Below are positions 32,878 to 45,387 of a DNA stretch of 64,000 nt, one piece after another. The position numbers and the translations under genes are program-made. The notes under the pieces are model-generated. The model had not been told where the DNA came from, made no database searches, and saw only the letters and a list, made by a program, of their open reading frames with translations. This DNA comes from an uncultured Verrucomicrobiota bacterium (GTDB lineage Bacteria > Verrucomicrobiota > Verrucomicrobiia > Limisphaerales > UBA1319), in the NCBI GenBank assembly GCA_964409245.1, contig CAYPCQ010000005.1, forward strand, positions 30,879 through 94,878. The letters are read 5' to 3'. The stretch's first letter is position 1, and the number at the start of each line of letters is the position of its first letter.

Positions 32878-32883
32878 TTGAAC

Positions 32884-35800
32884 ATGTTGAGCATCCAGGA
32901 ACAAAGACGGCGCATCGCGGAGGAGCTTGAGCGGCTTTCCCGGCTCAAGGCTGGCCGGAAGCCTTTGGCTGCCGCTCCCGCCGCGGGGCTTCCCGTGCCC
33001 GATGGCGAACCGGAACCGGTCGCCATTATCGGGCTGTCGGGTTGCCTGCCTGGTTGCCAGTCGGTGGACGCTTTCTGGCGGGCCTTGGACGAAGACCGGC
33101 GCCTGCTCGAGGCGCCGCCCCCTGAACGTCTTTCTTTGTGGAACCAGCTTCAACCGGGATGGTCAGGACTGGCGGGGCGTGGGATCCCTGGGGGTGGTTT
33201 CATCCCCGATATCCGGAGTTTCGCCCCCGAGTTCTTTGGCGTTCTGCCTGGGCAAGCGCATGGCTTGGATCCCCGCCAGCGATTGCTGCTGATGAGTGTT
33301 TACCACACCCTGGAGGATGCGGGATACGCCCCCGGATCCCTGAAGCAAAAACCGGTCGGCGTGTTCGTGGGGATTGAGGAGGATGAATACTTCCAGACCA
33401 TGCAGGACTTCGGCATCCCGACCATCGGAGGCGATGGGCTGGCTGCCAGCATGGTGGCGAACCGCATCTCGTGGTTCTTTGATTTCCGGGGCCCAAGCGA
33501 AGTGGTTAACACGATGTGTTCCGGCGCGGCGGTGGCGCTGCACCGGGCCGTCTGTTCGCTGCGCCTGGGGGAAAGCTCGATGGCGTTGGTGGGCGCCGCG
33601 AACCTGATGCTGCGCCCCGAACCCTTCCTGCAGTTGATCCAGACCGGGCAATTGAGTCCGGACCTTTCCATCCATTCGTTTGGCCGGGATGCGCAAGGCT
33701 TCTTGAGGGCGGATGGGGTGGCGAGCGTGCTCTTGAAACGCCTGTCCCAGGCGGAATCGGACGGCGACCCGATTTATGCCGTGATCCGCAATACGGCCAC
33801 TAACTATAACGGCAAGGGGGGGATGTCCATCGCGGCGCCCGATATTGCCGCCCATGCGGAACTGATTGAACGCTGTTATCGGCAGGCCGGGATCGATCCG
33901 CGGGAGGTCCGTTACATCGAAGCGCAGGGCATGGGGCAGCCAGTGGCGGACTTGGCGGAATGGCAGGCCTGCAACCGCGCCTTGTTGAAGCTGGCCGGCG
34001 AGCGGGGTGTTCAACTGGCTCCGGGCGCTTGCCGCATTGGCAGCATCAAACCGATGACCGGCCACATGCATTCCGCTTCGGCTTTGGGTGCGCTGTTCAA
34101 GGTCATCCACTGCCTGCGGACGGAGACTATCCATAAGATCCTGGGCTTTTCGGAACTCAATGCGGATCTTGAAAGCCCGGGGCAGCCATGCGCACCCGCC
34201 CGCCACACGGAGCCATGGCCCACCTCCGGGCGGCCCCGGTTGGCGGGGTTGCATGCCTACGGAGCGGGTGGCAATAATGCGCATATCCTCATCCAGGAAT
34301 ACCGCCAGGCGCTCCCCGCGGAGCGGGAACCTGCCCTGGTGATCCTGCCGATATCGGCGGAGTCGGTTGCGCAACGGCAGGAGGTCGTCAGGCGTTTGCT
34401 GGAGGCGGTCGGGCAACATCCTGAATACACGCTGGCGCCGGTGGCCCAAACGCTGCAGCAGGGGCGCGATGAAATGGCCTGCCGGCTGGCGTTTGTGGCG
34501 GCGGATAAAACGGCCTGGATGGCCCAGGCGCGGGCTTTTCTGGCCCACCAAAACTCTCCGGGGATTTTCCGGAGTGAGGCGGCCGCGAACGGCCAGTTCC
34601 CGGATCCCATGGCCCGTGCCGGGCAGTTGGCGCAAGCCTGGGTGCAGGGAGCCGCCGGCCAGGACTGGCCAGCCTCGTCGCAACATCGCCTGCACCTCCC
34701 CGGGTATCCTTTCGCCCTCAAGGATTGCTGGTTTGATCATATTCCCCGCGAAACGCCGGCGCCTGCCCGGCCGGCAACCGGCGAGGCCATGGCCAGTGCG
34801 GAAGCGGAGGCGATCGTGCGCTCGTTGCTTGGCCGCCATCTTGAAATGCCTTCCGCGCAGGTGGATTTGGATGCCGCCTTCGTGGATCAAGGTTTCAGTT
34901 CAACGATGGTTGCCGGGGTTGCCGCTGAATTGAATCGCCGGCATTCGATCCAGCTGGAGCCAGCCCGGTTTTTTGAATTCAAAAGCCCCCGGCAGTTGGT
35001 GGGCGCGCTGATGGAATACACCGGGAAAACCGCGCCAGCCCAGGAGGCCGGCTCCCCATGTCAACCGTGTCAACCGCACGAAGTTGCGGGCGGAACGAAT
35101 GCCGCCCCTCGCCACACTCCGTTTGTCTCCATCGCGATCATTGGCCTGGCCGGGAGGTATCCGGGTGCGTCCAACTTGGAGGAATTTTGGGATAATCTGC
35201 GGAAAGGCCGGGACTGCATTACGGAGATCCCGGAAGACCACTGGCGCCTGGCGGAACATTTTGATCCGAATCCAGAGACTGCCGCCAGGAGTGGGAAGAG
35301 TTACGGGAAATGGGGAGGCTTCATTTCCGGGCTGAATGAATTTGATCCGCTCTTCTTCAAGATCTCCCCCCTGGAGGCCGAGTCCATGAATCCCAAAGAG
35401 CGGCTGGTGCTGCAAACCGTCTGGCATGTCCTGGAGGATGCGGGGCATACGCTGGAGTCTCTGGCGGGTGACCGGGTGGGGGTCTTTTTCGGGGTGACCC
35501 GTGCGGGATGGGACGCCTACCCCGGAACGTTCAGTTCGGTTGCCAACCGCGTCTCTTATTTCTGTGGTTTTCACGGGCCCAGCGTGGCAATTGACACGAT
35601 GTGTTCCTCCTCGCTGGTGGCCATCCACGAGGCCTGCCAGCACCTGCAGACCGGGGGTTGTGATATGGCGGTGGCGGGAGGAGTCAACCTGTATTTACAC
35701 CCTTCCCATTTTGTAGTCCTGGCGCATGGCCGCTTTCTTTCCCCCGACGGCAAGTGCCGTGCCTTTGGGGCAGGGGCCAATGGCATGACACCCGGGGAAG

Positions 35801-38800
35801 GCGTGGGAGCGGTTTTGCTGAAGCCACTGGCCAGGGCCTTGCGTGATGGGGATCGGATTTATGGCGTGATTCGCGGATCCGCCAGCAATCATGGGGGCAA
35901 TGCGAATGGCTTCACGGTCCCCAATCCGGCGGCCCAGAGGGATTTGGTGTTGCAGGCGCTCCAGAACGCCAGCCTCCATCCGCGCCAGATCTCGTTCGTC
36001 GAGGCGCATGGCACCGGGACAACTTTGGGCGATCCGGTGGAAATCCGGGGTCTCGCCGAGGCTTATCGGCGCCACACCCCCGAGCGCGGTTTTTGCCGGA
36101 TCGGCTCGCTCAAGAGCAACCTGGGCCACCTGGAGGCGGCCGCCGGCATCGCCTCGCTCACCAAGGTTTTGCTGCAGATGCAACACCGCGAATTGGTGCC
36201 GTCCATCCACGCCGCGGAACTGAATCCGAACATCGATTTTCCCTCAACCCCGTTTGTGGTGCAGCAGGCCTGGGAACCGTGGCGTCCCACCGATGCGGAT
36301 GGCCGGTCCATGGCCCGCCGGGCGGCGGTATCCTCCTTCGGCGCCGGGGGCAGCAACGCCCACCTGATCGTGGAAGAACCATCGATTCGGGAGAAAATCA
36401 GCCAGGAAGAAGGCCCGCAACTGATCGTGCTTTCCGCGCGGAATGAGGACCGGCTGATGGAAGCGGCGCGCGGCCTTCACGATTTCATCCAACAGCATCC
36501 AGCCACCTCGCTCCGCGATATGGCTTGCACGCTGCAGTGTGGGCGGGAGGCCATGGAGGAGCGGTTGGCCATCCCTGCGTGTTCGCTGGAGCAGCTGAAA
36601 GAAAGGCTTTTTTCAGCGCTGAATGCGCCGGGCGCCAGCGAGGCGGTTTACCGCGGCCGGGTGGAAGTGCGCTGGCATAACCGGGTGCTGTCGAAACCGG
36701 AACCGGATCACGATATTCAGCCGGAGCAATGGCTGCGGCACCGGGACTTGGAAAGCCTCGCCAAAGCGTGGGTCAATGGAGAGCGCCTCAACTGGAGCCT
36801 GCTCCATCCAGGTGAAAAGCCCAGCCGGATCAGTTTGCCATTGTACCCATTTGCCCGGGTGGTGATCCCCACGCCCGAGCTGATGCCCGAACCCGAACCT
36901 GCCCGCCCGGACACGTTCCTGCATCCGCTGGCGCAGCGAAACACTTCGACTTTGAACGCGCAGCAGTTCACCTCCACGCTCCACGGCCGGGAGTTCTTCC
37001 TCGCCCACCATGTCGTTGAGGGGCGAAAAATGCTGCCCGCGGCGGCCTATCTGGAAATGGCGCGGGCGGCCATTGAGCGGTCGTTGCCGGAACGCCCCGC
37101 CCGCCAGGCCCCGGTGGATCATGCCGTGCCGGTGTGGCGGCTCAGCCAGGTGGTCTGGATGCGTCCGTTGTGTGTGGCGGAGGAACCGATCGAGGTCCAG
37201 ATCGCGCTGCAGGGGGATGCCTCCGGGCCGGTGCGTTTTGAAATCAAGACCAGCCCGGGCCTGGCCGCCGGCCCGGAACCAGCGCACGCCCAAGGCAGCG
37301 CCAATTTTGAATTTGCCGCCCAGCCGGAGGCGATCCACCTCGAGGCCATGCGGCCGGACAGCCCGCGGCAATTTTCGGCGGATCAATGTTACGCGGTGTT
37401 CACGGCGTTGGGGATCGACTACGGCCCGGGGCATCGAGGCATCGAAAGGTTATGGGCCGGCCCCCGCCAACTGCTTGCCAAATTGCGGCTGCCGGACGCC
37501 ATCGGAGAAACGGCCGGCCAGTATGTCCTGCACCCCAGCTTGCTGGATGCGGCATTCCAGGCAACCATCGGCTTTGGCCTGCTGGAGGCGGGGGTGAAGC
37601 CGGCCGGCGAAGCGGCAGCTCCGGCCGGTAATGGCAGCATTACAATGGACCAACTGGCCCGGCTCAAGCCTTCGCTGCCCTATGCCGTGGAACAGGTGGA
37701 AGTTTTCAACCCTGGCGCGGCCCTGATGTGGGCGGTGATCCGCCGCCAGACCGATCCCGCGCAGTCAGGCGCCCTGGAAAAATTCGACCTGGACCTTTGT
37801 GACGGGCAGGGGGGCGTCCAGGTGCGCATCAGAGGCTTTAGTGCGCGGATTTTGCGGGAGCCAGGTTCCGGATCGGAAAAGCCTTCGCTCCTGCTGCACT
37901 TCCCACATTGGGAAGCAAAGGAAGCGGCATATTTGGCGGGGGAGCCGCCGTCTTTCGAGCGGCGGGTGGTGGTTAGTTGCGGCACTGAGCCTTTGACGCC
38001 GGCTGCCTTGCAGGCTGCCGGTGCGCCGCCGAATATCGAATGGCTGCCGGCCGTGATCAAGGGCAGGAAATTGGCCAAGGAATTTTTCAATGCGGTGTCG
38101 CAGACGTTCTGCGCGATCCGGAATATTCTCGAGGCCAGGCCAACGGGCGACTCATTGGTTCAAGTGATCATGGGGAGCGGGGGCCAATGGCTGGCTCATT
38201 CCGGCCTGGTGGGGATGCTGCGGACAGTCCATCTCGAGTCCCCGCGGTTATTCGGGCAAATCATCCAGTTGGACGTGCCGCCAACAGGTGATCGGCTGGC
38301 CGGGATTCTGGCCGAGAACGCGGCTGCTCCGGGCGATGCCTGGATTCGCTATATCAAGAACCGGCGCGAGGTCATCGCCTGGCGGGAATATGCCCCTTCA
38401 ATCCAGGCGGTTCCCTGGAAGAACAACGGAGTGTATTTGATCACGGGCGGCTTGGGCGGCTTGGGCCGCATCTTCGCCCGGGAGATTGCCACGAGGGCCA
38501 CCGGGGCCAACATCATCCTGATCGGACGTTCCGAGCCGGGGGAAAATGGGAACCAATTCCTGCGATCCTTGAACGACCTTGGCGCCCAGGCCGCTTACTG
38601 GCGGGTGGATCTGCGGCATGGCGGCCAGGTCCGGGAATTCATTCGGGCCATCCTGAAGGAGCGGGGAGCCATCCATGGCATCCTGCATGCGGCCGGCGTC
38701 TTGAACGATCAGTATTTGCTCAGGAAATCAATTAAAGATATTGAGACGGTGCTCGGCCCCAAGGTTGCGGGCACGGTGAATCTGGATGAGGCCACGCGGG

Positions 38801-40794
38801 ATGTGGCCTTGGATTTCCTGATCCTGTTTTCCTCGGGAGCGACGCTGGGCAATCCCGGCCAGGGGGATTACGCTGCGGCCAACGCCTTCCTCGACGGATT
38901 TGCCCATTATCGGAATGGACTGGTTGAAACGGGTCAGCGCAAGGGCAAAACCATCTCCATTGCGTGGCCCTTCTGGAAAGCGGGTGGCATGCAGATGGAC
39001 GCCGCCGCGGAGCGATCGATGATTGAGAATTCGGGCCTGATCCCGATGGATACCCAAACCGGTTTGGACGCCTTTTACCGCTGCCTGGCGAGTGCGCACC
39101 CGCAAATCCTCGTGCTGCATGGGATGCCGGCCCGTCTGCAGGAAGTGCTGGCTTACCGGCCTGAGCTTCCGGGCAGCAGCCAGCGCGTTGAAAAGCCAAA
39201 TCCGCCGGAAAAACCTGGCGCTGGGGCAGGGGAGCACTCCACCCCCAACGACGAGCTGGGCGCAAAACTTGCCGGGCATCTCAAACGGCTGATCGGGGAG
39301 ACTCTCAAGATTCAGCCCGGGGATATGCGGGCGGACCAGGATCTCTACGGGTACGGCTTGGATTCGATCATCGCCTTGGAGGTGAATAATCGCTTGGAAA
39401 AGGATTTCCCCCGGCTGTCGAAAACTCTGTTCTTCGAATATTCCACCATTCAGGAATTGGCTGGCTACTTCCTCCAGGCGCAGCGCCAAAACGTTGAGCG
39501 GTTGTTTGCCGGGCAGGCAGCTTCCCCGCCGCCACCTGCGCTGCCCGCGGAAGCCCCTTGCCCGCCAGCAACACCCGTGCCTGAAAATCCCTTGCCGCTG
39601 TCCGGACCCGGTCCGGAGCAATTGCCAGCGCTGGCCACCGAAACGCCAGTCCCCACAAACAGCCATGCGCTTATGCCAGCGGGAGATGCGCATATGCCAG
39701 CGGGAGGCCAGCGGAGGCGTTTGGCCAGCATGGACGAGGTCATCCGGGTGCGCCAATTGGATATCGACCACCCGGCTCCCAGGCCGGCCGTCCGGCCAGC
39801 CAGGGTGGAGGGGTGGCCCAACTGGCATTCGGTGTTCCAGAGTTTTGCCATTTTTGACAAAATCCAACCGGGCTTCTCCTTTTCACGAATGTTGGCAGGT
39901 GGCGATGATGCCGTCCAGGATGCGGCTTTTTATCTGCTGGGACAGGTGGATCTGCGGCGGTTGCTATTCCACAAGGAAGACTTTCAAAAAGTGTCGCGGA
40001 TCCTCGACCTGGGATGTGGCCGGGCGGCGGATCTCATGGAACTCGCCTTGAGCCATCCCGGCCTCGCGGGGCATGGGTTGACGATTGATCCCGGGGAGGC
40101 GGCCTTCGCCAACCGGATGATCCGCCGCAAAGGCCTGGCGGAGCGGGTGCGGGTTATCCTGGCGGATGGGGCGGACCATGAGTATGAGCAAAATTACGAC
40201 CTCGCTTTCAGCATCCAGATGATGCACTTCATTCCGGACTTGGAGCACAAGCGGAAGCTGCTGCGAAAGGTCGCCGCCGCGCTGCGGGAAGGCGGGGTAT
40301 TGCTTATGGCCGAGTTTGTGTGCCTGCTGGCCAAGCCCATGCGGGATCCCGCTTTGAACGTAACGGTCCATACCGCCGGGGAGTGGGCTGGGATCCTGGG
40401 CGATAGTGGTTTGGTGCTGGAGGAAGTCGTGGATGCCAGTGTCGGGATCATCAATTTTCTCCACGATCCGGACCTCGACCGGCACATTGCCGGGCTGGAT
40501 CAACCGCGGCAGCTGGAAATCCGCAAATACAACCACCAGGTCAAAGGCCTGGAGAATCGCTGGGTCGGTTATTGCGTCATGCGGGCCGTGCGGGATGGCA
40601 GCAGCGCAACGGCTGCGCAACGAGCGCAGGCCAGCCGGGAACTATTGAGCCGCCGGACAACGCCCGGGCAGGCTCGCTCTGCCAAGGCCAATGGCCGATA
40701 TGGCGCACTTTACCGGGATCTCACCGGGCATTTTCAGGACTGTGTCCTGACGGCCCGGCCTCAATTGCCACTCATCCTCAACCAAAACCACTGA
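32884..40794 (+). CDS. trans-AT PKS subunit, 2636 aa: KS0-ACP, KS-DH-KR-ACP, C-terminal SAM methyltransferase
   Basis: The track starts at TTG 32878. I prefer ATG 32884, which sits 6 nt after AGGA (32874-32877). The N-terminus MLSIQEQRRRIAEELERLSRLKAG looks like a coiled docking element. Stop is TGA 40792-40794. Confidence 0.93.
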   Translation: MLSIQEQRRRIAEELERLSRLKAGRKPLAAAPAAGLPVPDGEPEPVAIIGLSGCLPGCQSVDAFWRALDEDRRLLEAPPPERLSLWNQLQPGWSGLAGRGIPGGGFIPDIRSFAPEFFGVLPGQAHGLDPRQRLLLMSVYHTLEDAGYAPGSLKQKPVGVFVGIEEDEYFQTMQDFGIPTIGGDGLAASMVANRISWFFDFRGPSEVVNTMCSGAAVALHRAVCSLRLGESSMALVGAANLMLRPEPFLQLIQTGQLSPDLSIHSFGRDAQGFLRADGVASVLLKRLSQAESDGDPIYAVIRNTATNYNGKGGMSIAAPDIAAHAELIERCYRQAGIDPREVRYIEAQGMGQPVADLAEWQACNRALLKLAGERGVQLAPGACRIGSIKPMTGHMHSASALGALFKVIHCLRTETIHKILGFSELNADLESPGQPCAPARHTEPWPTSGRPRLAGLHAYGAGGNNAHILIQEYRQALPAEREPALVILPISAESVAQRQEVVRRLLEAVGQHPEYTLAPVAQTLQQGRDEMACRLAFVAADKTAWMAQARAFLAHQNSPGIFRSEAAANGQFPDPMARAGQLAQAWVQGAAGQDWPASSQHRLHLPGYPFALKDCWFDHIPRETPAPARPATGEAMASAEAEAIVRSLLGRHLEMPSAQVDLDAAFVDQGFSSTMVAGVAAELNRRHSIQLEPARFFEFKSPRQLVGALMEYTGKTAPAQEAGSPCQPCQPHEVAGGTNAAPRHTPFVSIAIIGLAGRYPGASNLEEFWDNLRKGRDCITEIPEDHWRLAEHFDPNPETAARSGKSYGKWGGFISGLNEFDPLFFKISPLEAESMNPKERLVLQTVWHVLEDAGHTLESLAGDRVGVFFGVTRAGWDAYPGTFSSVANRVSYFCGFHGPSVAIDTMCSSSLVAIHEACQHLQTGGCDMAVAGGVNLYLHPSHFVVLAHGRFLSPDGKCRAFGAGANGMTPGEGVGAVLLKPLARALRDGDRIYGVIRGSASNHGGNANGFTVPNPAAQRDLVLQALQNASLHPRQISFVEAHGTGTTLGDPVEIRGLAEAYRRHTPERGFCRIGSLKSNLGHLEAAAGIASLTKVLLQMQHRELVPSIHAAELNPNIDFPSTPFVVQQAWEPWRPTDADGRSMARRAAVSSFGAGGSNAHLIVEEPSIREKISQEEGPQLIVLSARNEDRLMEAARGLHDFIQQHPATSLRDMACTLQCGREAMEERLAIPACSLEQLKERLFSALNAPGASEAVYRGRVEVRWHNRVLSKPEPDHDIQPEQWLRHRDLESLAKAWVNGERLNWSLLHPGEKPSRISLPLYPFARVVIPTPELMPEPEPARPDTFLHPLAQRNTSTLNAQQFTSTLHGREFFLAHHVVEGRKMLPAAAYLEMARAAIERSLPERPARQAPVDHAVPVWRLSQVVWMRPLCVAEEPIEVQIALQGDASGPVRFEIKTSPGLAAGPEPAHAQGSANFEFAAQPEAIHLEAMRPDSPRQFSADQCYAVFTALGIDYGPGHRGIERLWAGPRQLLAKLRLPDAIGETAGQYVLHPSLLDAAFQATIGFGLLEAGVKPAGEAAAPAGNGSITMDQLARLKPSLPYAVEQVEVFNPGAALMWAVIRRQTDPAQSGALEKFDLDLCDGQGGVQVRIRGFSARILREPGSGSEKPSLLLHFPHWEAKEAAYLAGEPPSFERRVVVSCGTEPLTPAALQAAGAPPNIEWLPAVIKGRKLAKEFFNAVSQTFCAIRNILEARPTGDSLVQVIMGSGGQWLAHSGLVGMLRTVHLESPRLFGQIIQLDVPPTGDRLAGILAENAAAPGDAWIRYIKNRREVIAWREYAPSIQAVPWKNNGVYLITGGLGGLGRIFAREIATRATGANIILIGRSEPGENGNQFLRSLNDLGAQAAYWRVDLRHGGQVREFIRAILKERGAIHGILHAAGVLNDQYLLRKSIKDIETVLGPKVAGTVNLDEATRDVALDFLILFSSGATLGNPGQGDYAAANAFLDGFAHYRNGLVETGQRKGKTISIAWPFWKAGGMQMDAAAERSMIENSGLIPMDTQTGLDAFYRCLASAHPQILVLHGMPARLQEVLAYRPELPGSSQRVEKPNPPEKPGAGAGEHSTPNDELGAKLAGHLKRLIGETLKIQPGDMRADQDLYGYGLDSIIALEVNNRLEKDFPRLSKTLFFEYSTIQELAGYFLQAQRQNVERLFAGQAASPPPPALPAEAPCPPATPVPENPLPLSGPGPEQLPALATETPVPTNSHALMPAGDAHMPAGGQRRRLASMDEVIRVRQLDIDHPAPRPAVRPARVEGWPNWHSVFQSFAIFDKIQPGFSFSRMLAGGDDAVQDAAFYLLGQVDLRRLLFHKEDFQKVSRILDLGCGRAADLMELALSHPGLAGHGLTIDPGEAAFANRMIRRKGLAERVRVILADGADHEYEQNYDLAFSIQMMHFIPDLEHKRKLLRKVAAALREGGVLLMAEFVCLLAKPMRDPALNVTVHTAGEWAGILGDSGLVLEEVVDASVGIINFLHDPDLDRHIAGLDQPRQLEIRKYNHQVKGLENRWVGYCVMRAVRDGSSATAAQRAQASRELLSRRTTPGQARSAKANGRYGALYRDLTGHFQDCVLTARPQLPLILNQNH
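33010..35010 (+). other. PKS module 10 (non-elongating): KS0-ACP
   Basis: KS spans about 33010-34300, with Cys in VNTMCSGA (33517-33519). The EAHGTGT block reads IEAQGMGQ (33916-33939; Gln 33925-33927 replaces His). PMTGH is retained. ACP spans about 34810-35010 with VDQGFSSTM (34897-34902), where Ser replaces the usual Asp. Confidence 0.85.
35125..39475 (+). other. PKS module 11: KS-DH-KR-ACP
   Basis: KS spans about 35125-36380 (DTMCSSS, EAHGTGT, SNLGH). DH spans about 36918-37860 (LHPLAQRNTS; HVVEGRKMLP with His 37009-37011; LLDAAFQ). KR spans about 37900-39140 (GVYLITGGLGGLG, FSSGAT, GDYAAANAF). ACP spans about 39250-39475 (YGYGLDSII, Ser 39364-39366). Confidence 0.88.
39790..40560 (+). 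other. C-terminal class-I SAM-dependent methyltransferase domain placed after ACP11; distinct from the five in-line cMTs
   Basis: Motif I is RILDLGCGRAAD (39997-40032). It is followed by VRVILADGADHEYEQNYDLAFSIQMMHFIPD and REGGVLLMAEF (post-I, II and III-like blocks). It lacks the LE(I/V)GAGTG(G/A)T(T/S) and NVLHAT signatures shared by the five cMTs. Confidence 0.7.
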
Positions 40795-40796
40795 CT

Positions 40797-41790
40797 ATGA
40801 ACCATCAGGTCATCCATGAGCATGAGTTGGGCAAGCATCCCGAGCTGGAGCAGTTGGTGCGGGAAATCGACGAAAGGCATCCGCCGGTGGGATATGAGCG
40901 TTTGCTTTACCCCTGGCTCCTGATCATGCCCGAAAGCCAGGCTTATGCGCGGCTAATTCTCAACCAGGCCAGCCAGCTCATCATTCCGCTCCTGCCGATC
41001 GACGAATCTGCCTATCAGCACCTGGACGCCTTCAGCCGGGCCTCCGGCTTGGGGATTCTCCTGGTTGATCGATTCCATCCCTGGCTGGCCCAAACCGGGC
41101 TGCGGCTCGTGCCGGTGGGGGTGCTTCAGAATATTGAGCTGGGCGCCTTCAGCTTGCAGGGAAACCGCATGCGCAAGCTGCGCTACATGGTGAACCGGTT
41201 CGCCAGCTCGGGGAGGGCAAGGACCGTGGAATATGCCCCCCAGGACCGGCCCCCGTTCCCGGCGATGATCGAATTGATGGAGGCCTGGGGAAAGGCCAAG
41301 AATAATGTCATCTGGCACACCGCCCTTTGCATGGAACATCTGCTGAAGGGGGAATTGCCCGCCGGGCACCGGGCTTTTCTGACCTTCCTGGATGACCGGC
41401 TATGTTCCATCATCGTGGTCGAGGCTTTTGGGCGGTTGGGCTGCTTGATGGATCAGGAGTTTTACGATCCGGAAAACGCGCCGCTGGGCCACATGGAATT
41501 TGCCATTGTGGAAATGATGGAGCGTTTGAGGACGGAAGGCCTGCAGGTGCTGTCGCTCGGAGCCACCTGGCATCCGTTTACCTTTGGGGACCATCCCCAT
41601 ACCGATCCTGAAGGCTGGGCCTGGCTTAAGAAAAACCACGAACGCCCGACGCTCCTCGGGAAAATCTTTGCGCAAGGGCAGTCCAACTACCAGTTCAAGA
41701 AAAAATTCGGGGTCGAAGGTGAGCCGTTATTCGCCTATCTGCCACCGGCTGCCCCCTGGTCCACGATCCTCAATTATTGGACCGTTTTTT
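40797..41790 (+). other. DUF2156 / LPG_synthase_C-like domain (fold of the MprF C-terminal aminoacyl-tRNA-dependent aminoacyl transferase)
   Basis: FSLQGNRMRKLRYMVNRF (GNRMRKLRYMVNRF = 41160-41201), ..NAPLGHMEFAIVEMMERLRTEGLQVLSLGATW.. and SNYQFKKKFG (41682-41711) match, in the same order, blocks I recall from MprF-type C-terminal domains (F(T/S)LSGKKMRGLRxxxNK; DAPxGIMDFL...GYxYFNLGMAPL; YNFQGLRRFKEKY). This is motif recall, not an HMM score. Confidence 0.6.
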
Positions 41791-44700
41791 ATGAGCATTC
41801 GCTGACCCCCGCCCAGCTCAGCGAGCAGTTGCGGAAACTGTGGCCGGCGGCCGCCCGGCCATCCCCATGCCTGGACCGCCCTGACCAGCGGCAGGCGGCG
41901 TGGGATCAAGCGAAGCGGTTCGAGGATCTGGCCTGCTCCGCCAGCCCGCTTGACCTGATGAGCGATACCTGGTTTGGGCGGGAGCTGGAGCCGGTTCGAA
42001 AGCGCACCGAATGGTTGAAGACGCAACCGGTATCGGATTCGCTTCCTTTTCTGAAGGAGCTTTTCCACTTCAAGCATTTGATCCTGACCCAGCGGGGGCG
42101 CGATGCGGAAGCCTTGTTTTATGGGCAGTATCCCAAGGCCAGGCGGATAATCCTCACCGCCATCCCCTGGACCTCGACGCTGATGCATCAGCTGGGCAAT
42201 GGTTTTACGGTGGTCGAGGTGCCGGTTCCTTCGGCGCTGGATCCGGGGCCGGATGAATTGTTCAAGGGAGAATGTGATCTGGCGGCCCTCAAGGACCATC
42301 TACAGCGGGACGCTTCCGGGGTGGGGATGGTGGGATTGGAATTGCTGAATAACGCAACCGGCGGCCATCCGGTGCGGCTTTCCCATGTGCATCAGCTAAG
42401 GGATCTGTTGCAGGGATGCGGAGTGCCGCTGGTCATGGATGCTTCCCGCATCGTTCGGAACGCCGTGCTGCTCCAGCGTTATGATCCGGCAAGCCAGGAA
42501 CGGGACGTCTGGTGGCTGGTGCGTGAATTGCTGGCCGGGGCGGATTACGTGGTGACCAGCCTCACCAAGGATTTTGGGGTGCCGGCGGGAGGGTTGATTG
42601 CCACTAACGATGACGCGCTGGCGGCGCGGATCCGGGAGTGCCAAAGCGCCCAAGGCTCGGTTGACATGGCCAAAGACCTGTTCATTGAGCAGTCGCTGGC
42701 CGGCAAAGAGGCGATCCGGCTGATGGTCGAGGAACAGCTGGCGCTCACCAAATCCCTGCAGGACCGCTTGTCGGATTGCGGAGTCCCCCTTTGCGGGCCC
42801 GCCTACGGGCATGCCATCGTCATTGATTGTGCGAAGTATCTGCCGGATCCGGAATCCAAGGCGGCCCGGGAAAAATTCCTGCGCGATCTTTTTATACAGA
42901 CCGGAGTTCGGGGCGGGATCCATCAAGCCGGACAGCAGCGGCAGGGCCGCCTGGCGCGGTGCATCAGGCTCGCCTTTCCATTGGGATTGGCGCGCACCCA
43001 TGAGGAATTGATTTTCGGGAAATTGCGGGAGTTTCTGGCTCCCCGAACTGCGGTGGAGGCGGCGTCTCCCTTGCGCGTCTCCCCCAGCGATGATTTTTCA
43101 GCATTTCTTCCGAACGCCGAAGGCGCGGCGGTGGATCCGGAGCCTTCCGGGATGGAAGCCATTGCCATTATTGGATTGAGCGGCCGCTTTCCCGGGGCGG
43201 ACAATCACTATGAATTTTGGGCGGGGATCCAAAGCGGGGCAAACTTTGTGCGGGAGGTGCCTGGGGAACGCTGGAATCACCAGGAGTATTTCGATCCGCA
43301 GCTGGGCAAAACTTTTGTGCCCCACAAAACGCGCTGCAAATTCGGAGCTTTCCTGAAGGGGCACGATCTTTTCGATGCCGCCTTTTTCAACCTGTCCAAC
43401 CAGGAAGTGGTCATGATGGATCCCCAGGAGCGCCTGGCCATGGAGGTGGTGTGGTCGTGCATTGAAGATGCGGGTTATATCCCCAGCCAGCTGGGCCACG
43501 AAGTGGGGCTCTTTGCGGGCGTCACTTACAATGAATACCAAAAGCTGATACCGCGAACGACCCATTCCTGCTTTCTGACCAGCCGGCTGGCCTACTTTTT
43601 CAATTTCAATGGGCCAGCCGCCGCCCTGGATACCGGGTGCGCCTCCTCCATGGCGGCGATTGACGCGGCCTGCCAGAGTTTGAGCAGCCGACGTTGCCGC
43701 GCCGCGTTCGTGATCGGTTCAAATGTCATTCTCCATCCTGACCATTATGCCAGTTTATCTCCTGAACTAAGTTCAGCCAGCCAGCCGGAGTCGATGCCGT
43801 TTGGCGATGCTGATGGTTGGATTCCGGCGGAAGGCGTGGCCGCCATCCTGCTCAAGCCTTTGAGCCAAGCCATGCGTGACCGGGATCATATCTATGCGGT
43901 GATCAAATCCAGCGCCCTGGGGCAGGAAGGCAAAACTTCGTGGTTCTCGGCTTTCAGCCCCAAACGCCAGGCGGATTTCCTCCAGCGGAGCTTCGAGCGA
44001 GCGGGTATTTCCCCCGCCACCATCAGCTACGTGGAAGCCGCCGCCAACGGTTCCCCGCTGGGCGATGCCATTGAATTAGAGGGGCTTGCCAAGGCCTTTC
44101 GGCAATGGACCCAGCGGGATGGTTGCTGCCCCATCGGCACCGTCAAGGCTAACGCCGGGCATGGCGAAAGTGTATCGACTTTGCTGCAATTGACCAAAGT
44201 CTTGCTCCAATTCAAAGCGGGGGAGATCTATCCCTTGCCGCACCCTGAAAGGCGGAATCCGAATATCCGCATCCAGGAGACGCCCTTCCGGTTTCCGGCT
44301 TTGACCGAGGCTTGGGACAGGCCCACGTTCCTGGTTGATGGGAAGCGTTTTTCCGTGCCTCGCCGCGCCTCCATTTCCTCTTTTGGGGGAGGTGGAAACA
44401 TGGGCCATTTGATTCTTGAGGAGGCTCCCCCGGGCCGGGATGGCCCCGATCCGCTGGCTTCCTACCTCATTCCGCTGTCGGCCCAAAACCCGGAACAGCT
44501 GCCTGGGAAAGCCGCCGACCTGCTGGCCTTTTTCGACCACCTGGAAACGCTGGATGCCCACTGGGCGGAGACGTATGGGCTGATCCACATCATGCACACG
44601 CTCTGGTTGGGACGCATGGCCCAGGCCCAGCGGGTGGCTTTCGTGGTGGCTGATCTGGAAGAGTTGAAGAACCAATGCCAGCGCTTCCTGCGCCAGGAGC

Positions 44701-45371
44701 CTCATCCCGGCATCATCGTTCAAGGCCAGGGCGTGGCTGGCAATCTGGATGTCCCCGGATTGATTGAATCGCAAAACTGGCCCGAGCTGGGGCGGCAATG
44801 GGTCAGCGGAAGGGAAATTCCCTGGGGGCACTTTTTCGAGTCCAAAAAGGCCAATCGAGTCCCCTTGCCGGGCTATCGGTTCGACCGGAAAAGGCATGAA
44901 ATCTCTCCAGAGGCATTCCGGCGAAAGGGCGGGAATCCCATCCCCGAAAAAACCGTGCCCCGGCCAGCGGGCGGCCTGCGTCCGCGCGCGGAGGAATCCA
45001 ATTTGATCCGGATCGTCAAAGCAGCGTTTGCCAAAGTGTTGCCGGCTGGCCGGGAGTCGCTGGACCTCGCCCGACCGCTGGATCAGTATGGCTTTGACTC
45101 GGCGATGGTGGTTGGGGTGGCGGCGGAATTGGAAAAGCATTTTACCCGAGTGCCGCCAACCCTGTTTTTTGAATGTGGCACCATTGGTGACGTGGTGGAG
45201 TGCCTGCGCCAGGCATCGCCCGGGAACGGTGGCCTTGCCAATGAAGCTTCCCGGGCCATTGCCAGCCCGGCTGAAGAATCGTCCGGGAAAGCCTTTAACA
45301 TCGACCAAGTGGTGGAAGACATCCTATCATACCGCCTGTCGGCTGAGCAGGTTTTGGAGCGGCTTGAATGA
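40797..45371 (+). CDS. Atypical PKS subunit, 1524 aa: DUF2156/MprF-C-like domain, tryptophanase/tyrosine phenol-lyase-like PLP domain, KS0, ACP, C-terminal docking-like tail
   Basis: The track ORF 40572-45371 has 75 N-terminal codons that overlap gene 3 and are Arg/Gly/Pro-rich junk. ATG 40797 lies 2 nt after the gene 3 stop (MNHQVIHEHELGKHPELEQLV...). Stop is TGA 45369-45371. Domain evidence is given in the separate features. Confidence 0.9.
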   Translation: MNHQVIHEHELGKHPELEQLVREIDERHPPVGYERLLYPWLLIMPESQAYARLILNQASQLIIPLLPIDESAYQHLDAFSRASGLGILLVDRFHPWLAQTGLRLVPVGVLQNIELGAFSLQGNRMRKLRYMVNRFASSGRARTVEYAPQDRPPFPAMIELMEAWGKAKNNVIWHTALCMEHLLKGELPAGHRAFLTFLDDRLCSIIVVEAFGRLGCLMDQEFYDPENAPLGHMEFAIVEMMERLRTEGLQVLSLGATWHPFTFGDHPHTDPEGWAWLKKNHERPTLLGKIFAQGQSNYQFKKKFGVEGEPLFAYLPPAAPWSTILNYWTVFYEHSLTPAQLSEQLRKLWPAAARPSPCLDRPDQRQAAWDQAKRFEDLACSASPLDLMSDTWFGRELEPVRKRTEWLKTQPVSDSLPFLKELFHFKHLILTQRGRDAEALFYGQYPKARRIILTAIPWTSTLMHQLGNGFTVVEVPVPSALDPGPDELFKGECDLAALKDHLQRDASGVGMVGLELLNNATGGHPVRLSHVHQLRDLLQGCGVPLVMDASRIVRNAVLLQRYDPASQERDVWWLVRELLAGADYVVTSLTKDFGVPAGGLIATNDDALAARIRECQSAQGSVDMAKDLFIEQSLAGKEAIRLMVEEQLALTKSLQDRLSDCGVPLCGPAYGHAIVIDCAKYLPDPESKAAREKFLRDLFIQTGVRGGIHQAGQQRQGRLARCIRLAFPLGLARTHEELIFGKLREFLAPRTAVEAASPLRVSPSDDFSAFLPNAEGAAVDPEPSGMEAIAIIGLSGRFPGADNHYEFWAGIQSGANFVREVPGERWNHQEYFDPQLGKTFVPHKTRCKFGAFLKGHDLFDAAFFNLSNQEVVMMDPQERLAMEVVWSCIEDAGYIPSQLGHEVGLFAGVTYNEYQKLIPRTTHSCFLTSRLAYFFNFNGPAAALDTGCASSMAAIDAACQSLSSRRCRAAFVIGSNVILHPDHYASLSPELSSASQPESMPFGDADGWIPAEGVAAILLKPLSQAMRDRDHIYAVIKSSALGQEGKTSWFSAFSPKRQADFLQRSFERAGISPATISYVEAAANGSPLGDAIELEGLAKAFRQWTQRDGCCPIGTVKANAGHGESVSTLLQLTKVLLQFKAGEIYPLPHPERRNPNIRIQETPFRFPALTEAWDRPTFLVDGKRFSVPRRASISSFGGGGNMGHLILEEAPPGRDGPDPLASYLIPLSAQNPEQLPGKAADLLAFFDHLETLDAHWAETYGLIHIMHTLWLGRMAQAQRVAFVVADLEELKNQCQRFLRQEPHPGIIVQGQGVAGNLDVPGLIESQNWPELGRQWVSGREIPWGHFFESKKANRVPLPGYRFDRKRHEISPEAFRRKGGNPIPEKTVPRPAGGLRPRAEESNLIRIVKAAFAKVLPAGRESLDLARPLDQYGFDSAMVVGVAAELEKHFTRVPPTLFFECGTIGDVVECLRQASPGNGGLANEASRAIASPAEESSGKAFNIDQVVEDILSYRLSAEQVLERLE
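41850..43060 (+). other. PLP-dependent beta-eliminating lyase domain (tryptophanase / tyrosine phenol-lyase family-like)
   Basis: Five blocks appear in family order: LDLMSDT; ELFHFKHLILTQRGRDAE (42057-42110; compare TPL ELFGFKHIVPTHQGRGAEN); LLNNATGGHPV (compare VNLAGGQPV); VMDASRIVRNA (Asp 42438-42440, Arg 42447-42449; compare DATRCVENA); and VTSLTKDFGVPAGGLIATND (Lys 42567-42569; compare MSGKKDxLVxIGGFLxMND). The domain is about 400-450 aa, the size of a full TPL/Tnase subunit. Confidence 0.7.
43152..45210 (+). other. PKS module 12 (non-elongating): KS0-ACP
   Basis: KS spans about 43152-44428 (MEAIAIIGLSGRFPG; Cys in LDTGCASS 43638-43640). The EAHGTGT block reads VEAAANGS (about 44031-44054), so that His is lost. 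ANAGH is retained, and GGGGNMGH replaces GxGGxNAH. ACP spans about 44998-45210 (DQYGFDSAM, Ser 45099-45101). Confidence 0.85.
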
Positions 45372-45387
45372 ACGCAAACAGCAAACC

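What the first reader, a model, noticed from the sequence alone, without database searches (positions are those of the whole stretch)
39790..43060. Contiguous block of three non-canonical domains across a 2-nt gene junction: ACP11, MT, stop, DUF2156-like, PLP lyase-like, KS0
Seen in sequence: gene 3 does not end at its ACP. It continues for ~440 codons through a Pro/Ala-rich linker into a class-I SAM methyltransferase (RILDLGCGRAAD 39997-40032, LLMAEF). This domain lacks the signatures shared by the five in-line cMTs (LE(I/V)GAGTGxT, NVLHAT). In every other MT-containing module here the MT precedes the ACP, so an MT after the ACP at a subunit C-terminus is atypical. The stop TGA 40792-40794 is followed 2 nt later by the start of gene 4 and its two unusual domains. 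Inference: MT, DUF2156-like and PLP domains may form one functional unit acting on the intermediate held on ACP11 or ACP12. One possibility is O- or N-methylation of a hydroxyl or of an installed aminoacyl group. The MT could equally be an O-MT for the module 11 beta-hydroxyl, which would conflict with the DH in that module.
Basis: partly seen in the sequence, partly recalled or inferred. Interest (0 to 1): 0.65.

Follow-up and report, generated by a model that had tools for sequence, protein, structure and literature searches.

The report
Sulfur-inserting, methyl-capping polyketide synthase module
The three odd domains are a known sulfur-inserting enzyme pair (the "DUF-SH" didomain of leinamycin-type antibiotics) plus a tightly coupled, altered methyltransferase that probably caps the new sulfur with a methyl group, built into a giant polyketide assembly line of an uncultured Verrucomicrobium.

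Summary
Gene 3 (32878-40794) ends KS-DH-KR-ACP-linker-MT. After TGA and 2 nt, gene 4 (40797-45371) reads DUF2156-like, PLP lyase-like, KS0, ACP.

It is the DUF-SH didomain of leinamycin-family PKSs. In that family the SH domain is a PLP thiocysteine lyase that installs -SSH/-SH at a beta-carbon. This copy belongs to the non-leinamycin branch, where an in-module DH/KR makes the enoyl acceptor instead of a beta-branch.

The MT belongs to the StiD/StiE/6HP1 PKS O-MT family, not the cMTs. Its catalytic Glu is Gln (Q2447) in 16 of 16 DUF-SH-adjacent copies, against Glu in 8 of 8 ordinary O-MTs.

Every MT of this type whose neighbourhood could be read (about 14 clusters, at least four named phyla) sits directly before a DUF-SH. 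In one Acidobacteriota MAG, MT-DUF-SH is a single polypeptide. The MT-linked DUF-SH copies form one clade.

Best reading: (thio)cysteine adds to enoyl-ACP11, SH cleaves the C-S bond, and the MT S-methylates the product. This gives a mid-chain -SCH3 or -SSCH3. The sulfur step rests on homology and the S-methylation is inferred.

Verdict: a new variant of a known kind, of moderate interest.

The parts
35128..36213 (+). KS of module 11 (elongating: Cys909, EAHGTGT, SNLGH)
   Evidence: Pfam; motifs read
36922..37863 (+). DH of module 11 with catalytic motifs intact (H1378 in HVVEGRKMLP at 37009-37011; D1557 in DAAFQ). Predicted to make the 2-enoyl Michael acceptor.
   Evidence: Pfam; sequence
38428..38979 (+). 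KR of module 11 (Tyr1998 present)
   Evidence: Pfam
39280..39468 (+). ACP11 (phosphopantetheinyl Ser2163 at 39364-39366)
   Evidence: Pfam PP-binding, E 6e-13
39469..39804 (+). Pro/Ala-rich linker between ACP11 and the MT
   Evidence: Translation
39805..40647 (+). MT domain of the StiD/StiE/6HP1 PKS O-MT family. Motif I is at 39997-40032. Gln2447 (40216-40218) replaces the catalytic Glu. His2450 is shifted by one position. Proposed in-line S-methyltransferase.
   Evidence: PDB phmmer: 6hp1 2e-41, StiD 8e-31, StiE 4e-28; alignments and signature; PMC10127204 for the role of the Glu
40648..40794 (+). C-terminal tail of gene 3 plus TGA stop. It is colinear with the MT-DUF linker of the fused L009 protein and is a possible docking element.
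   Evidence: Junction comparison
40797..41846 (+). DUF domain (LPG_synthase_C/DUF2156, dupli-GNAT fold). Proposed to form the (thio)cysteine-polyketide C-S adduct.
   Evidence: Pfam; AlphaFold model pLDDT 87.8; Foldseek top hits are MprF/A-PGS/L-PGS, E 3e-14
41946..43049 (+). SH domain (PLP beta-eliminating lyase fold). PLP Lys591 is at 42567-42569 and Asp548 is in MDASR.
   Evidence: Best PDB hit is the PKS chain 9cen, E 1e-35, ahead of tyrosine phenol-lyases at 1e-31; Pfam and NCBIfam
43152..44243 (+). KS0 (Cys948 kept; first His replaced, VEAAANG with Ala1082; His1122 kept). A non-elongating transfer KS.
   Evidence: The same VEAAANG motif follows DUF-SH in SAR324, L015, L009 and L011.
45015..45206 (+). 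ACP12 (Ser1435 at 45099-45101)
   Evidence: Pfam

Best explanation
This is one extended trans-AT PKS module, KS-DH-KR-ACP11-MT | DUF-SH-KS0-ACP12. It is split between two translationally adjacent proteins, and it puts a methyl-capped sulfur on the beta-carbon of the growing chain.

Steps:
1. KS, KR and DH make a 2-enoyl thioester on ACP11. This is inferred from the intact motifs.
2. The dupli-GNAT DUF domain promotes conjugate addition of L-thiocysteine or L-cysteine to C-3. This step is only a proposal even in the leinamycin systems, and the domain's use of a tRNA-bound donor is an open question.
3. The PLP-dependent SH domain (Lys591) cleaves the cysteinyl C-S bond and leaves -SSH or -SH. 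This activity has been shown biochemically for LnmJ-, GnmT- and WsmR-SH. Here it is inferred by homology.
4. The C-terminal MT of gene 3 transfers a methyl group from SAM to the sulfur, giving a 3-(methyldisulfanyl)- or 3-(methylthio)-acyl chain. The MT is a beta-O-MT homologue whose general-base Glu has become Gln. This step is inferred.
5. KS0 passes the product to ACP12 and on to gene 5.
For: Identity of DUF-SH: Pfam finds LPG_synthase_C plus Beta_elim_lyase. The best solved relative of the PLP part is a PKS chain (9cen, E 1e-35), ahead of all tyrosine phenol-lyases, and the PLP Lys and Asp are kept. The DUF model (pLDDT 87.8) matches the MprF/A-PGS fold. The literature defines DUF-SH, its post-ACP position and the thiocysteine lyase activity (PMC8479088, PMC7618002).

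Acceptor: DH-KR precede the ACP in every relative examined of this branch, with or without the MT. The DH motifs are intact.

MT family: 6hp1 2e-41, StiD 8e-31 and StiE 4e-28, with no cMT hit.

Catalytic switch: Gln in 16 of 16 DUF-SH-adjacent MTs against Glu in 8 of 8 other O-MTs. The neighbouring His is shifted, and SAM motif I is invariant. That Glu is the base for beta-OH deprotonation, and it is Gln in O-MTs whose nucleophile needs no deprotonation (PMC10127204).

Coupling: MT sits immediately before DUF-SH in Verrucomicrobiota, SAR324, Acetobacteraceae, Nisaea, Solibacteraceae and several metagenome lineages. The three are fused as DH-KR-ACP-MT-DUF-SH in L009. The MT-linked DUF-SH copies form one clade.

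Precedent for methyl-capping the installed sulfur: GnmP (PMC8479088).
Against: There is no biochemical or metabolite evidence for this cluster or for any non-leinamycin DUF-SH cluster.

The MT's substrate is inferred only from context and one active-site substitution. The same Glu-to-Gln change marks enol (beta-keto) O-MTs, so it does not by itself point to sulfur.

Sister clusters lack the MT although their DUF-SH is also mid-line (L011). Capping is therefore not obligatory.

Support for the MT-linked clade is moderate (SH-aLRT 81-93).

The role of the DUF domain is unproven anywhere.

Which ACP (11 or 12) carries the chemistry is unknown.
Confidence: 0.6

Rival explanations
1. The MT is an ordinary beta-hydroxyl O-methyltransferase, as in StiD/StiE. 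It methylates the module-11 beta-OH (or another hydroxyl), and its adjacency to DUF-SH is incidental.
For: The closest solved relatives are beta-O-MTs. A KR is present in the module.
Against: The catalytic Glu base is Gln in all 16 copies. The DH is intact, so the hydroxyl should be removed. The MT sits after the ACP, unlike the Glu-type O-MTs in the same relatives. It was never seen without DUF-SH next to it.
Confidence: 0.1
2. The MT is an enol O-methyltransferase (LynB2/JamN/BarF/MtaF type). It converts 3-oxoacyl-ACP11 into a 3-methoxy-2-enoyl thioester, and DUF-SH then substitutes that product by addition-elimination with (thio)cysteine.
For: It shares the Glu-to-Gln signature of enol O-MTs. 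A beta-methoxyacrylate is a plausible acceptor on chemical grounds (inference).
Against: KR and DH are intact and conserved in every MT-containing lineage. MT-less sisters have the same KS-DH-KR-ACP, so the enoyl chain is the ancestral acceptor. The relationship to enol O-MTs was not tested here because no sequences were available.
Confidence: 0.1
3. The DUF2156-like domain acts as an aminoacyl-tRNA-dependent transferase that installs an aminoacyl group on the chain. The PLP domain remodels that group, and the MT N- or O-methylates it.
For: All the top structural neighbours of the DUF domain are aminoacyl-tRNA-dependent transferases: MprF, A-PGS, L-PGS, Sbb17 and FemX.
Against: Homologous SH domains are experimentally thiocysteine/cysteine C-S lyases (PMC8479088). 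N-methylation of the adduct would block the PLP aldimine chemistry (inference). After DH action the chain has no acyl-accepting hydroxyl.
Confidence: 0.1
4. One or more of the three domains are inactive relics carried along in the assembly line.
For: None specific. KS0 domains show that degenerate domains persist in trans-AT PKSs.
Against: SAM motif I, the PLP Lys and Asp, and 41 invariant DUF columns are conserved across at least four named phyla at 31-94% identity, with no frame disruption.
Confidence: 0.03

Closest known systems
DUF-SH didomain of leinamycin-family hybrid NRPS-PKS (LnmJ, GnmT, WsmR; Meng et al. 2021, PMC8479088; Phillips et al. 2024, PMC7618002)
   Same: The same two domains occur in the same order directly after an ACP: a DUF2156-type dupli-GNAT and a PLP tyrosine-phenol-lyase-like SH with the PLP Lys. 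The best solved relative of the PLP part is a PKS chain (9cen). An actinobacterial leinamycin-type locus (L012) aligns at 32% identity.
   Different: It is not a terminal module. It has no tandem ACPs, no TE and no beta-branching. The Michael acceptor comes from an in-module DH/KR. KS0-ACP follows. The unit is split over two genes. An MT is inserted between the ACP and DUF. It lies in a separate, 100%-supported DUF-SH branch.
Non-leinamycin DUF-SH PKS families found by genome mining (Meng et al. 2021, Fig. 1c and Suppl. Figs 4-5: Burkholderia, Lysobacter, Chromobacterium, Corallococcus, Alteromonadaceae)
   Same: DUF-SH is embedded in varied trans-AT modules with a single ACP and no TE. No products are known.
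   Different: From the text available I could not tell whether an MT-DUF-SH architecture was drawn there, because the figures are not held. The strict MT coupling, the fusion and the Glu-to-Gln switch are not described in the searchable text.
GnmP, the stand-alone SAM-dependent hydropersulfide S-methyltransferase of guangnanmycin biosynthesis (PMC8479088)
   Same: It has the proposed function: methyl-capping the -SSH installed by an SH domain.
   Different: GnmP is a discrete post-assembly-line enzyme acting on the released product. Here the MT is an in-line domain of O-MT ancestry that presumably acts on the ACP-bound chain. Sequence relatedness was not tested.
PKS beta-O-methyltransferase domains StiD-MT and StiE-MT (6ECU-6ECX) and the trans-AT PKS MT 6HP1
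   Same: Clear homologues (E 2e-41 to 4e-28) over the whole lid plus Rossmann core. SAM motif I is conserved.
   Different: The catalytic Glu is Gln. His is shifted by one residue. There is a 3-aa insertion. The domain lies after the ACP at a protein C-terminus, and no beta-hydroxyl is expected.
Enol O-MTs LynB2/BarF/JamN/MtaF/CtaF (PMC10127204)
   Same: Gln replaces the catalytic Glu, which is interpreted as a nucleophile that needs no deprotonation.
   Different: Those act in modules without KR or DH, on 3-oxoacyl-ACP. Here KR and DH are intact and DUF-SH is always adjacent.
MprF / aminoacyl-phosphatidylglycerol synthase catalytic domain (DUF2156; 6LV0, 5VRV, 4V34)
   Same: The DUF domain shares the dupli-GNAT fold (Foldseek E about 1e-14, TM 0.58-0.70).
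   Different: Sequence identity is 14-19%. There is no membrane flippase domain. It is embedded in a PKS, its acceptor is a polyketide rather than a lipid, and tRNA dependence is unknown.

Membership tests
DUF-SH sulfur-incorporation didomain (leinamycin-family type, broad sense) | A DUF2156/LPG_synthase_C-type domain immediately N-terminal to the lyase domain | tested here: met
   Pfam PF09924, E 2e-14. AlphaFold model pLDDT 87.8 with Foldseek MprF/A-PGS hits at E 3e-14.
DUF-SH sulfur-incorporation didomain (leinamycin-family type, broad sense) | A PLP-dependent tryptophanase/TPL-fold SH domain with the Schiff-base Lys | tested here: met
   PF01212, E 4e-22. Best PDB hit is PKS chain 9cen, E 1e-35. 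SLTK591D aligns with the TPL SGKKD motif, and D548 is in MDASR.
DUF-SH sulfur-incorporation didomain (leinamycin-family type, broad sense) | Placement directly downstream of a PKS ACP | tested here: met
   ACP11-(MT)-DUF-SH here. ACP-DUF-SH in L006, L011 and L012. KS-ACP-ACP-DUF-SH-TE is given in PMC7618002.
DUF-SH sulfur-incorporation didomain (leinamycin-family type, broad sense) | Thiocysteine/cysteine C-S lyase activity that installs -SSH/-SH | not testable with these tools
   Needs an enzyme assay. Shown only for LnmJ-, GnmT- and WsmR-SH (PMC8479088).
Leinamycin-type terminal module (strict sense) | A final module KS-ACP-ACP-DUF-SH-TE with a beta-branch as the acceptor | tested here: not met
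   One ACP, no TE, DH-KR present, KS0-ACP and at least 5 further modules downstream. The DUF-SH tree places it in a different branch from L012.
PKS beta-hydroxyl O-methyltransferase (StiD/StiE type) | Homology to the StiD/StiE/6HP1 MT fold with SAM motif I | tested here: met
   E 2e-41, 8e-31 and 4e-28. D2377, G2379, C2380 and G2381 are invariant.
PKS beta-hydroxyl O-methyltransferase (StiD/StiE type) | A catalytic Glu acting as general base | tested here: not met
   Gln2447. It is Gln in 16 of 16 DUF-SH-adjacent MTs against Glu in 8 of 8 others. The role of the Glu is from PMC10127204.
PKS beta-hydroxyl O-methyltransferase (StiD/StiE type) | A beta-hydroxyl substrate is available (KR without an active DH) | tested here: not met
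   The DH keeps HxxxGxxxxP, YGP and DxxxQ.
Enol (3-oxoacyl) O-methyltransferase (LynB2/JamN/BarF/MtaF) | Gln at the catalytic Glu position | tested here: met
   Q2447; PMC10127204.
Enol (3-oxoacyl) O-methyltransferase (LynB2/JamN/BarF/MtaF) | The module lacks KR and DH, so the 3-oxo group persists | tested here: not met
   KR and DH are present and intact in all MT-bearing relatives.
Enol (3-oxoacyl) O-methyltransferase (LynB2/JamN/BarF/MtaF) | Phylogenetic grouping with LynB2/MtaF | not tested
   No sequences of that family could be fetched, and the published alignment is an image.
Trans-AT PKS C-methyltransferase | LE(I/V)GAGTG and NVLHAT motifs, with a position before the ACP | tested here: not met
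   Motifs are absent. The five window cMTs form a separate 100/100 clade on a branch of length 2.2.
MprF-type aminoacyl-tRNA-dependent transferase | Dupli-GNAT catalytic fold | tested here: met
   Foldseek hits 6lv0, 5vrv, 4v34 and 4v36, TM 0.58-0.70.
MprF-type aminoacyl-tRNA-dependent transferase | Use of an aminoacyl-tRNA donor | not testable with these tools
   Needs an assay with and without tRNA, CysRS and ATP.

The most novel reading that the evidence does not exclude
This would be the first polyketide-synthase-embedded S-methyltransferase domain. It evolved from a beta-O-methyltransferase by a Glu-to-Gln (and His-shift) active-site change. It is locked to a DUF-SH sulfur-insertion didomain as a portable three-domain cassette, and that cassette has spread across at least four named phyla. 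It writes a mid-chain methyl(di)sulfide into polyketides while they are still on the assembly line.

A further possibility is that the dupli-GNAT DUF delivers cysteine from Cys-tRNA.
Probability: 0.5. Interest if true: 0.65.

Novelty: new variant of a known kind. Interest (0 to 1): 0.55.

Why it matters
Enzymatic sulfur insertion into a polyketide backbone is so far understood only for the terminal module of leinamycin-type pathways. No product is known for any non-leinamycin DUF-SH cluster.

This module gives a defined, widely conserved architecture in which sulfur would be inserted and methyl-capped in the middle of chain assembly. It offers three practical things:
- A structural prediction for the products: an S-methyl or methyldisulfide at a specific carbon.
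- A one-residue signature (Q-x-x-H versus E-V-x-x-H) for annotating such MTs.
- A cultured carrier, Nisaea nitritireducens DSM 19540, in which to test the idea.

If confirmed, the cassette would be a portable tool for putting thioethers or disulfides into engineered polyketides. The fused and split variants would also help to settle what the long-unexplained DUF domain does.

Tried and rejected
- Literature searches for the PDB codes 6HP1/6HP2 and 9CEN returned nothing relevant. I therefore cannot name the proteins from a paper. 9cen is only described as "Polyketide Synthase Protein". An earlier AI note calls it GnmT-SH, which I did not verify.
- A search for thiomethyl/methylthio trans-AT polyketides found no characterised MT-DUF-SH system. 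The verrucosin paper it turned up is unrelated chemistry.
- The figures showing non-leinamycin DUF-SH architectures and the O-MT alignment are images that are not held. I could not check whether MT-DUF-SH was already drawn, and I could not extract enol O-MT sequences.
- Look-up of P0022 (a stand-alone DUF-SH) found no record. The P0175 locus gave a gene table but no DNA.
- Rooting the MT tree on the cMTs puts the root on a very long branch, so I draw no conclusion from the apparent paraphyly of the DUF-SH MTs. I use only the 100/100 split from the Glu-type O-MTs.
- I considered methyl-capping as a necessity for any mid-line thiol. I rejected it as a general rule, because the MT-less L011 DUF-SH is also mid-line.
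- I considered a sequencing or assembly artefact for the stop between MT and DUF. I rejected it, because the split recurs in independent assemblies with different junction sequences.

Full report
**1. What is in the sequence**

Gene 3 runs 32878-40794 on the + strand. Its TGA stop (40792-40794) is followed by "CT" and then the ATG of gene 4 (40797-45371).

Pfam on gene 3 gives KS0-ACP and then KS (751-1112), DH (1349-1662), KR (1851-2034) and ACP (2135-2197). A Pro/Ala-rich linker follows, then a class-I methyltransferase at about 2310-2590 and a 48-residue tail.

Gene 4 gives LPG_synthase_C/DUF2156 (91-269), Beta_elim_lyase (420-675), KS (786-1149) and ACP (1407-1470). The KS keeps Cys948 and His1122 but reads VEAAANG where EAHGTG should be. 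It is therefore a non-elongating KS0.

The five C-methyltransferases of the window carry LE(I/V)GAGTG and NVLHAT, and each lies about 250 residues before an ACP. The gene-3 MT has neither motif and lies after its ACP.

**2. What the gene-4 pair is**

The PLP domain's best solved relative is not a tryptophanase or a tyrosine phenol-lyase. It is a chain deposited as "Polyketide Synthase Protein" (9cen, E 1e-35). The tyrosine phenol-lyases follow at 1e-31. The Schiff-base lysine (K591, SLTKD against SGKKD) and the MDASR aspartate are kept.

The literature identifies this arrangement. A "DUF-SH" didomain sits after the ACPs of the last module of the leinamycin, guangnanmycin and weishanmycin synthases. 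SH is a PLP-dependent thiocysteine (and cysteine) lyase that leaves -SSH/-SH on C-3. DUF is proposed, but not shown, to make the (thio)cysteine adduct by conjugate addition (PMC8479088; PMC7618002).

Genome mining by those authors found 109 DUF-SH PKSs in four sequence clusters. Three of these lie outside the leinamycin family, and their products are unknown.

I modelled the DUF domain from a 12-sequence alignment (pLDDT 87.8, pTM 0.83). Its top structural neighbours are the catalytic domains of MprF, alanyl-PG synthase and lysyl-PG synthase (E 3e-14, TM 0.58-0.70). After these come the tRNA-dependent peptide synthase Sbb17 and FemX.

**3. What the MT is**

Against all PDB sequences the MT hits 6hp1 ("putative polyketide synthase", 2e-41), StiD (8e-31) and StiE (4e-28). 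The next hit is at 2e-11, and no PKS C-MT appears. In a tree, the window's five cMTs are separated from it by a branch of length 2.2 with 100/100 support. It belongs to the PKS O-methyltransferase family.

There is one consistent difference. StiD, StiE and 6hp1 read E-V-x-x-H, and so do five other PKS O-MTs. Three of those five lie in the very clusters that also carry a DUF-SH-adjacent MT. The gene-3 MT and all 15 other DUF-SH-adjacent MTs read Q-x-x-H instead, and they carry a three-residue insertion. That is Gln in 16 of 16 against Glu in 8 of 8.

SAM motif I (D2377, G2379, C2380, G2381) is invariant across both groups, so the domain is not a relic.

According to PMC10127204, this Glu is the base that deprotonates the beta-hydroxyl in StiD and StiE. 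It is Gln in LynB2/BarF/JamN/MtaF, whose enol-type nucleophile needs no deprotonation. The published numbering (Gln186, His190) fits the E-V-x-x-H column.

**4. Do the three domains belong together?**

I tested this in relatives.

The DUF-SH of the window has a 94%-identical counterpart in a Verrucomicrobia MAG. It has 63-70% counterparts in several metagenomes. It has 43-48% counterparts in SAR324, Acetobacteraceae, Nisaea nitritireducens, Solibacteraceae, Paenibacillus and a MAG labelled Veillonellaceae. A leinamycin-type locus in Actinosynnema matches at 32%.

A tblastn search with the MT finds it ending just before the DUF start in the following:
- the Verrucomicrobia MAG;
- all the 63-70% metagenome loci;
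- SAR324, Acetobacteraceae, Nisaea and Solibacteraceae;
- two further metagenome lineages (L015/L017 and L016).

Domain order is KS-DH-KR-ACP-MT | DUF-SH in each case.

In the Solibacteraceae MAG, DH-KR-ACP-MT-DUF-SH is one open reading frame that stops after SH. The tail plus head of the split versions is colinear with that fused linker. In L015/L017 a metallophosphatase gene lies between the two PKS genes, but the MT is still the last domain of the upstream PKS protein and DUF-SH still opens the next PKS gene.

I also ran the reverse search, starting from the MT. All 13 proteins with 41-98% identity end in this MT with a 38-55-residue tail and Gln. The next hits, from Burkholderia gladioli, are N-terminal Glu-type O-MTs. 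Where I could read the neighbourhood, the next PKS gene began with DUF-SH.

The converse does not hold:
- Paenibacillus and the "Veillonellaceae" MAG have KS-DH-KR-ACP-DUF-SH without an MT.
- Of the 150 best DUF-SH representatives listed (852 hits at E <= 1e-3), none has an O-MT-type MT in the same polypeptide, apart from one fragment.

On a DUF-SH tree, the nine MT-linked sequences form one clade (SH-aLRT 81, or 93 without the fused one). That clade lies inside a 100%-supported branch that is separate from the leinamycin-type branch.

The MT was therefore probably acquired once by a DH/KR-type DUF-SH module and has stayed with it while the cassette moved between phyla.

**5. Mechanism**

The DH of module 11 has HVVEGRKMLP, YGP and DAAFQ. 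The KR has its Tyr, and the KS is complete. ACP11 should therefore carry a 2-enoyl thioester.

The DH makes the Michael acceptor that beta-branching provides in leinamycin.

The most economical scheme is as follows. (Thio)cysteine adds at C-3, which is the proposed role of the DUF. SH then cleaves the C-S bond. This is demonstrated for homologues and inferred here. The MT then methylates the new -SH or -SSH, which is inferred.

A thiol or hydropersulfide is acidic enough not to need the Glu base, which fits the Gln substitution. Methyl-capping an SH-installed hydropersulfide has a precedent in the stand-alone enzyme GnmP (PMC8479088).

KS0-ACP12 then relays the chain. A VEAAANG-type KS0 follows DUF-SH in the window family, SAR324, L015, L009 and the MT-less L011, but Nisaea has an elongating KS.

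I cannot say whether the product is -SCH3 or -SSCH3, nor which ACP is served.

**6. Rivals**

- An ordinary beta-O-MT is contradicted by the lost base, the intact DH, the post-ACP position and the strict coupling to DUF-SH.
- An enol O-MT feeding an addition-elimination shares the Gln signature. It requires the conserved KR and DH to be bypassed. It also does not explain why MT-less sisters have the same reductive domains. I could not test phylogenetic affinity to LynB2/MtaF.
- An aminoacyl-tRNA-dependent aminoacylation route agrees with the DUF fold but not with the demonstrated chemistry of SH domains. tRNA-borne cysteine as the thiol donor remains an open and interesting possibility.
- Relic domains are unlikely, given the conservation of catalytic motifs across phyla.

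**7. Context**

The window is C5:30879-94878 of an 8.94-Mb, 260-contig assembly. Its RpoB is 86-89% identical to proteins labelled Verrucomicrobia, Pedosphaera and Limisphaerales.

The PKS genes run from C5:3853 to 120144, about 116 kb, and end in an NRPS A-PCP-TE. This MT and this DUF-SH each occur only once in the genome.

**8. Verdict**

The DUF-SH identification is secure by homology, at about 0.85. The S-methyltransferase role of the MT is an inference, at about 0.6.

Relative to what is known, this is a new variant of a known kind: a mid-line, DH/KR-fed DUF-SH module with a dedicated in-line MT of O-MT ancestry and an altered active site.

Noticed in passing
genome contig C5:3853-120144 (window = C5:30879-94878): The assembly line is about 116 kb of contiguous PKS genes and ends in an NRPS A-PCP-TE. 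No AT domain or HMGS cassette was seen in the flanks I read. A 240-aa P-loop protein follows the last gene.
   Followed up: partly
L015:3828-5792 and L017:5451-7415: In one metagenome lineage, a 654-aa metallophosphatase (purple-acid-phosphatase-like) gene is inserted between the MT-ending PKS gene and the DUF-SH-starting PKS gene.
   Followed up: no
L008:2392-3264, L007:3258-4127, L010:2856-3740: SAR324, Acetobacteraceae and Nisaea each carry a second, Glu-type O-MT in a KS-MT-ACP module without a detectable KR. It lies one module upstream of the DUF-SH module, which suggests a larger shared module block.
   Followed up: partly
window 44040-44042; also P0009, P0010, L009 and L011: The KS that follows DUF-SH has the same VEAAANG lesion (first His to Ala) in distant lineages, including the MT-less Paenibacillus. 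KS0-ACP may therefore be part of the conserved sulfur-insertion block. Nisaea is an exception, with an elongating KS.
   Followed up: partly
window 40792-40799 versus L005:9990-10003: The 94%-identical MAG has an overlapping stop/start (ATGA) where the window has TGA-CT-ATG. L007 and L010 use GTGA overlaps. The gene boundary is conserved in position but not in sequence.
   Followed up: yes
L006 (record titled uncultured Veillonellaceae MAG): A large trans-AT PKS with a C-terminal DUF-SH lies on a 2.1-Mb contig labelled Veillonellaceae. It is followed by a 4Fe-4S protein and an MFS transporter. The taxonomic label was not checked.
   Followed up: no
window 45028-45388: The ORF list starts gene 5 at TTG 45028, which overlaps gene 4. 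ATG 45388, 17 nt after the gene-4 stop, is the more likely start.
   Followed up: no
genome contig C5:7-3624 and C5:122362-126269 (-): The cluster is flanked by large repeat-rich secreted or surface proteins: a 1205-aa repeat protein upstream and two paralogous proteins of 566 and 736 aa downstream. They are probably unrelated to the PKS.
   Followed up: no
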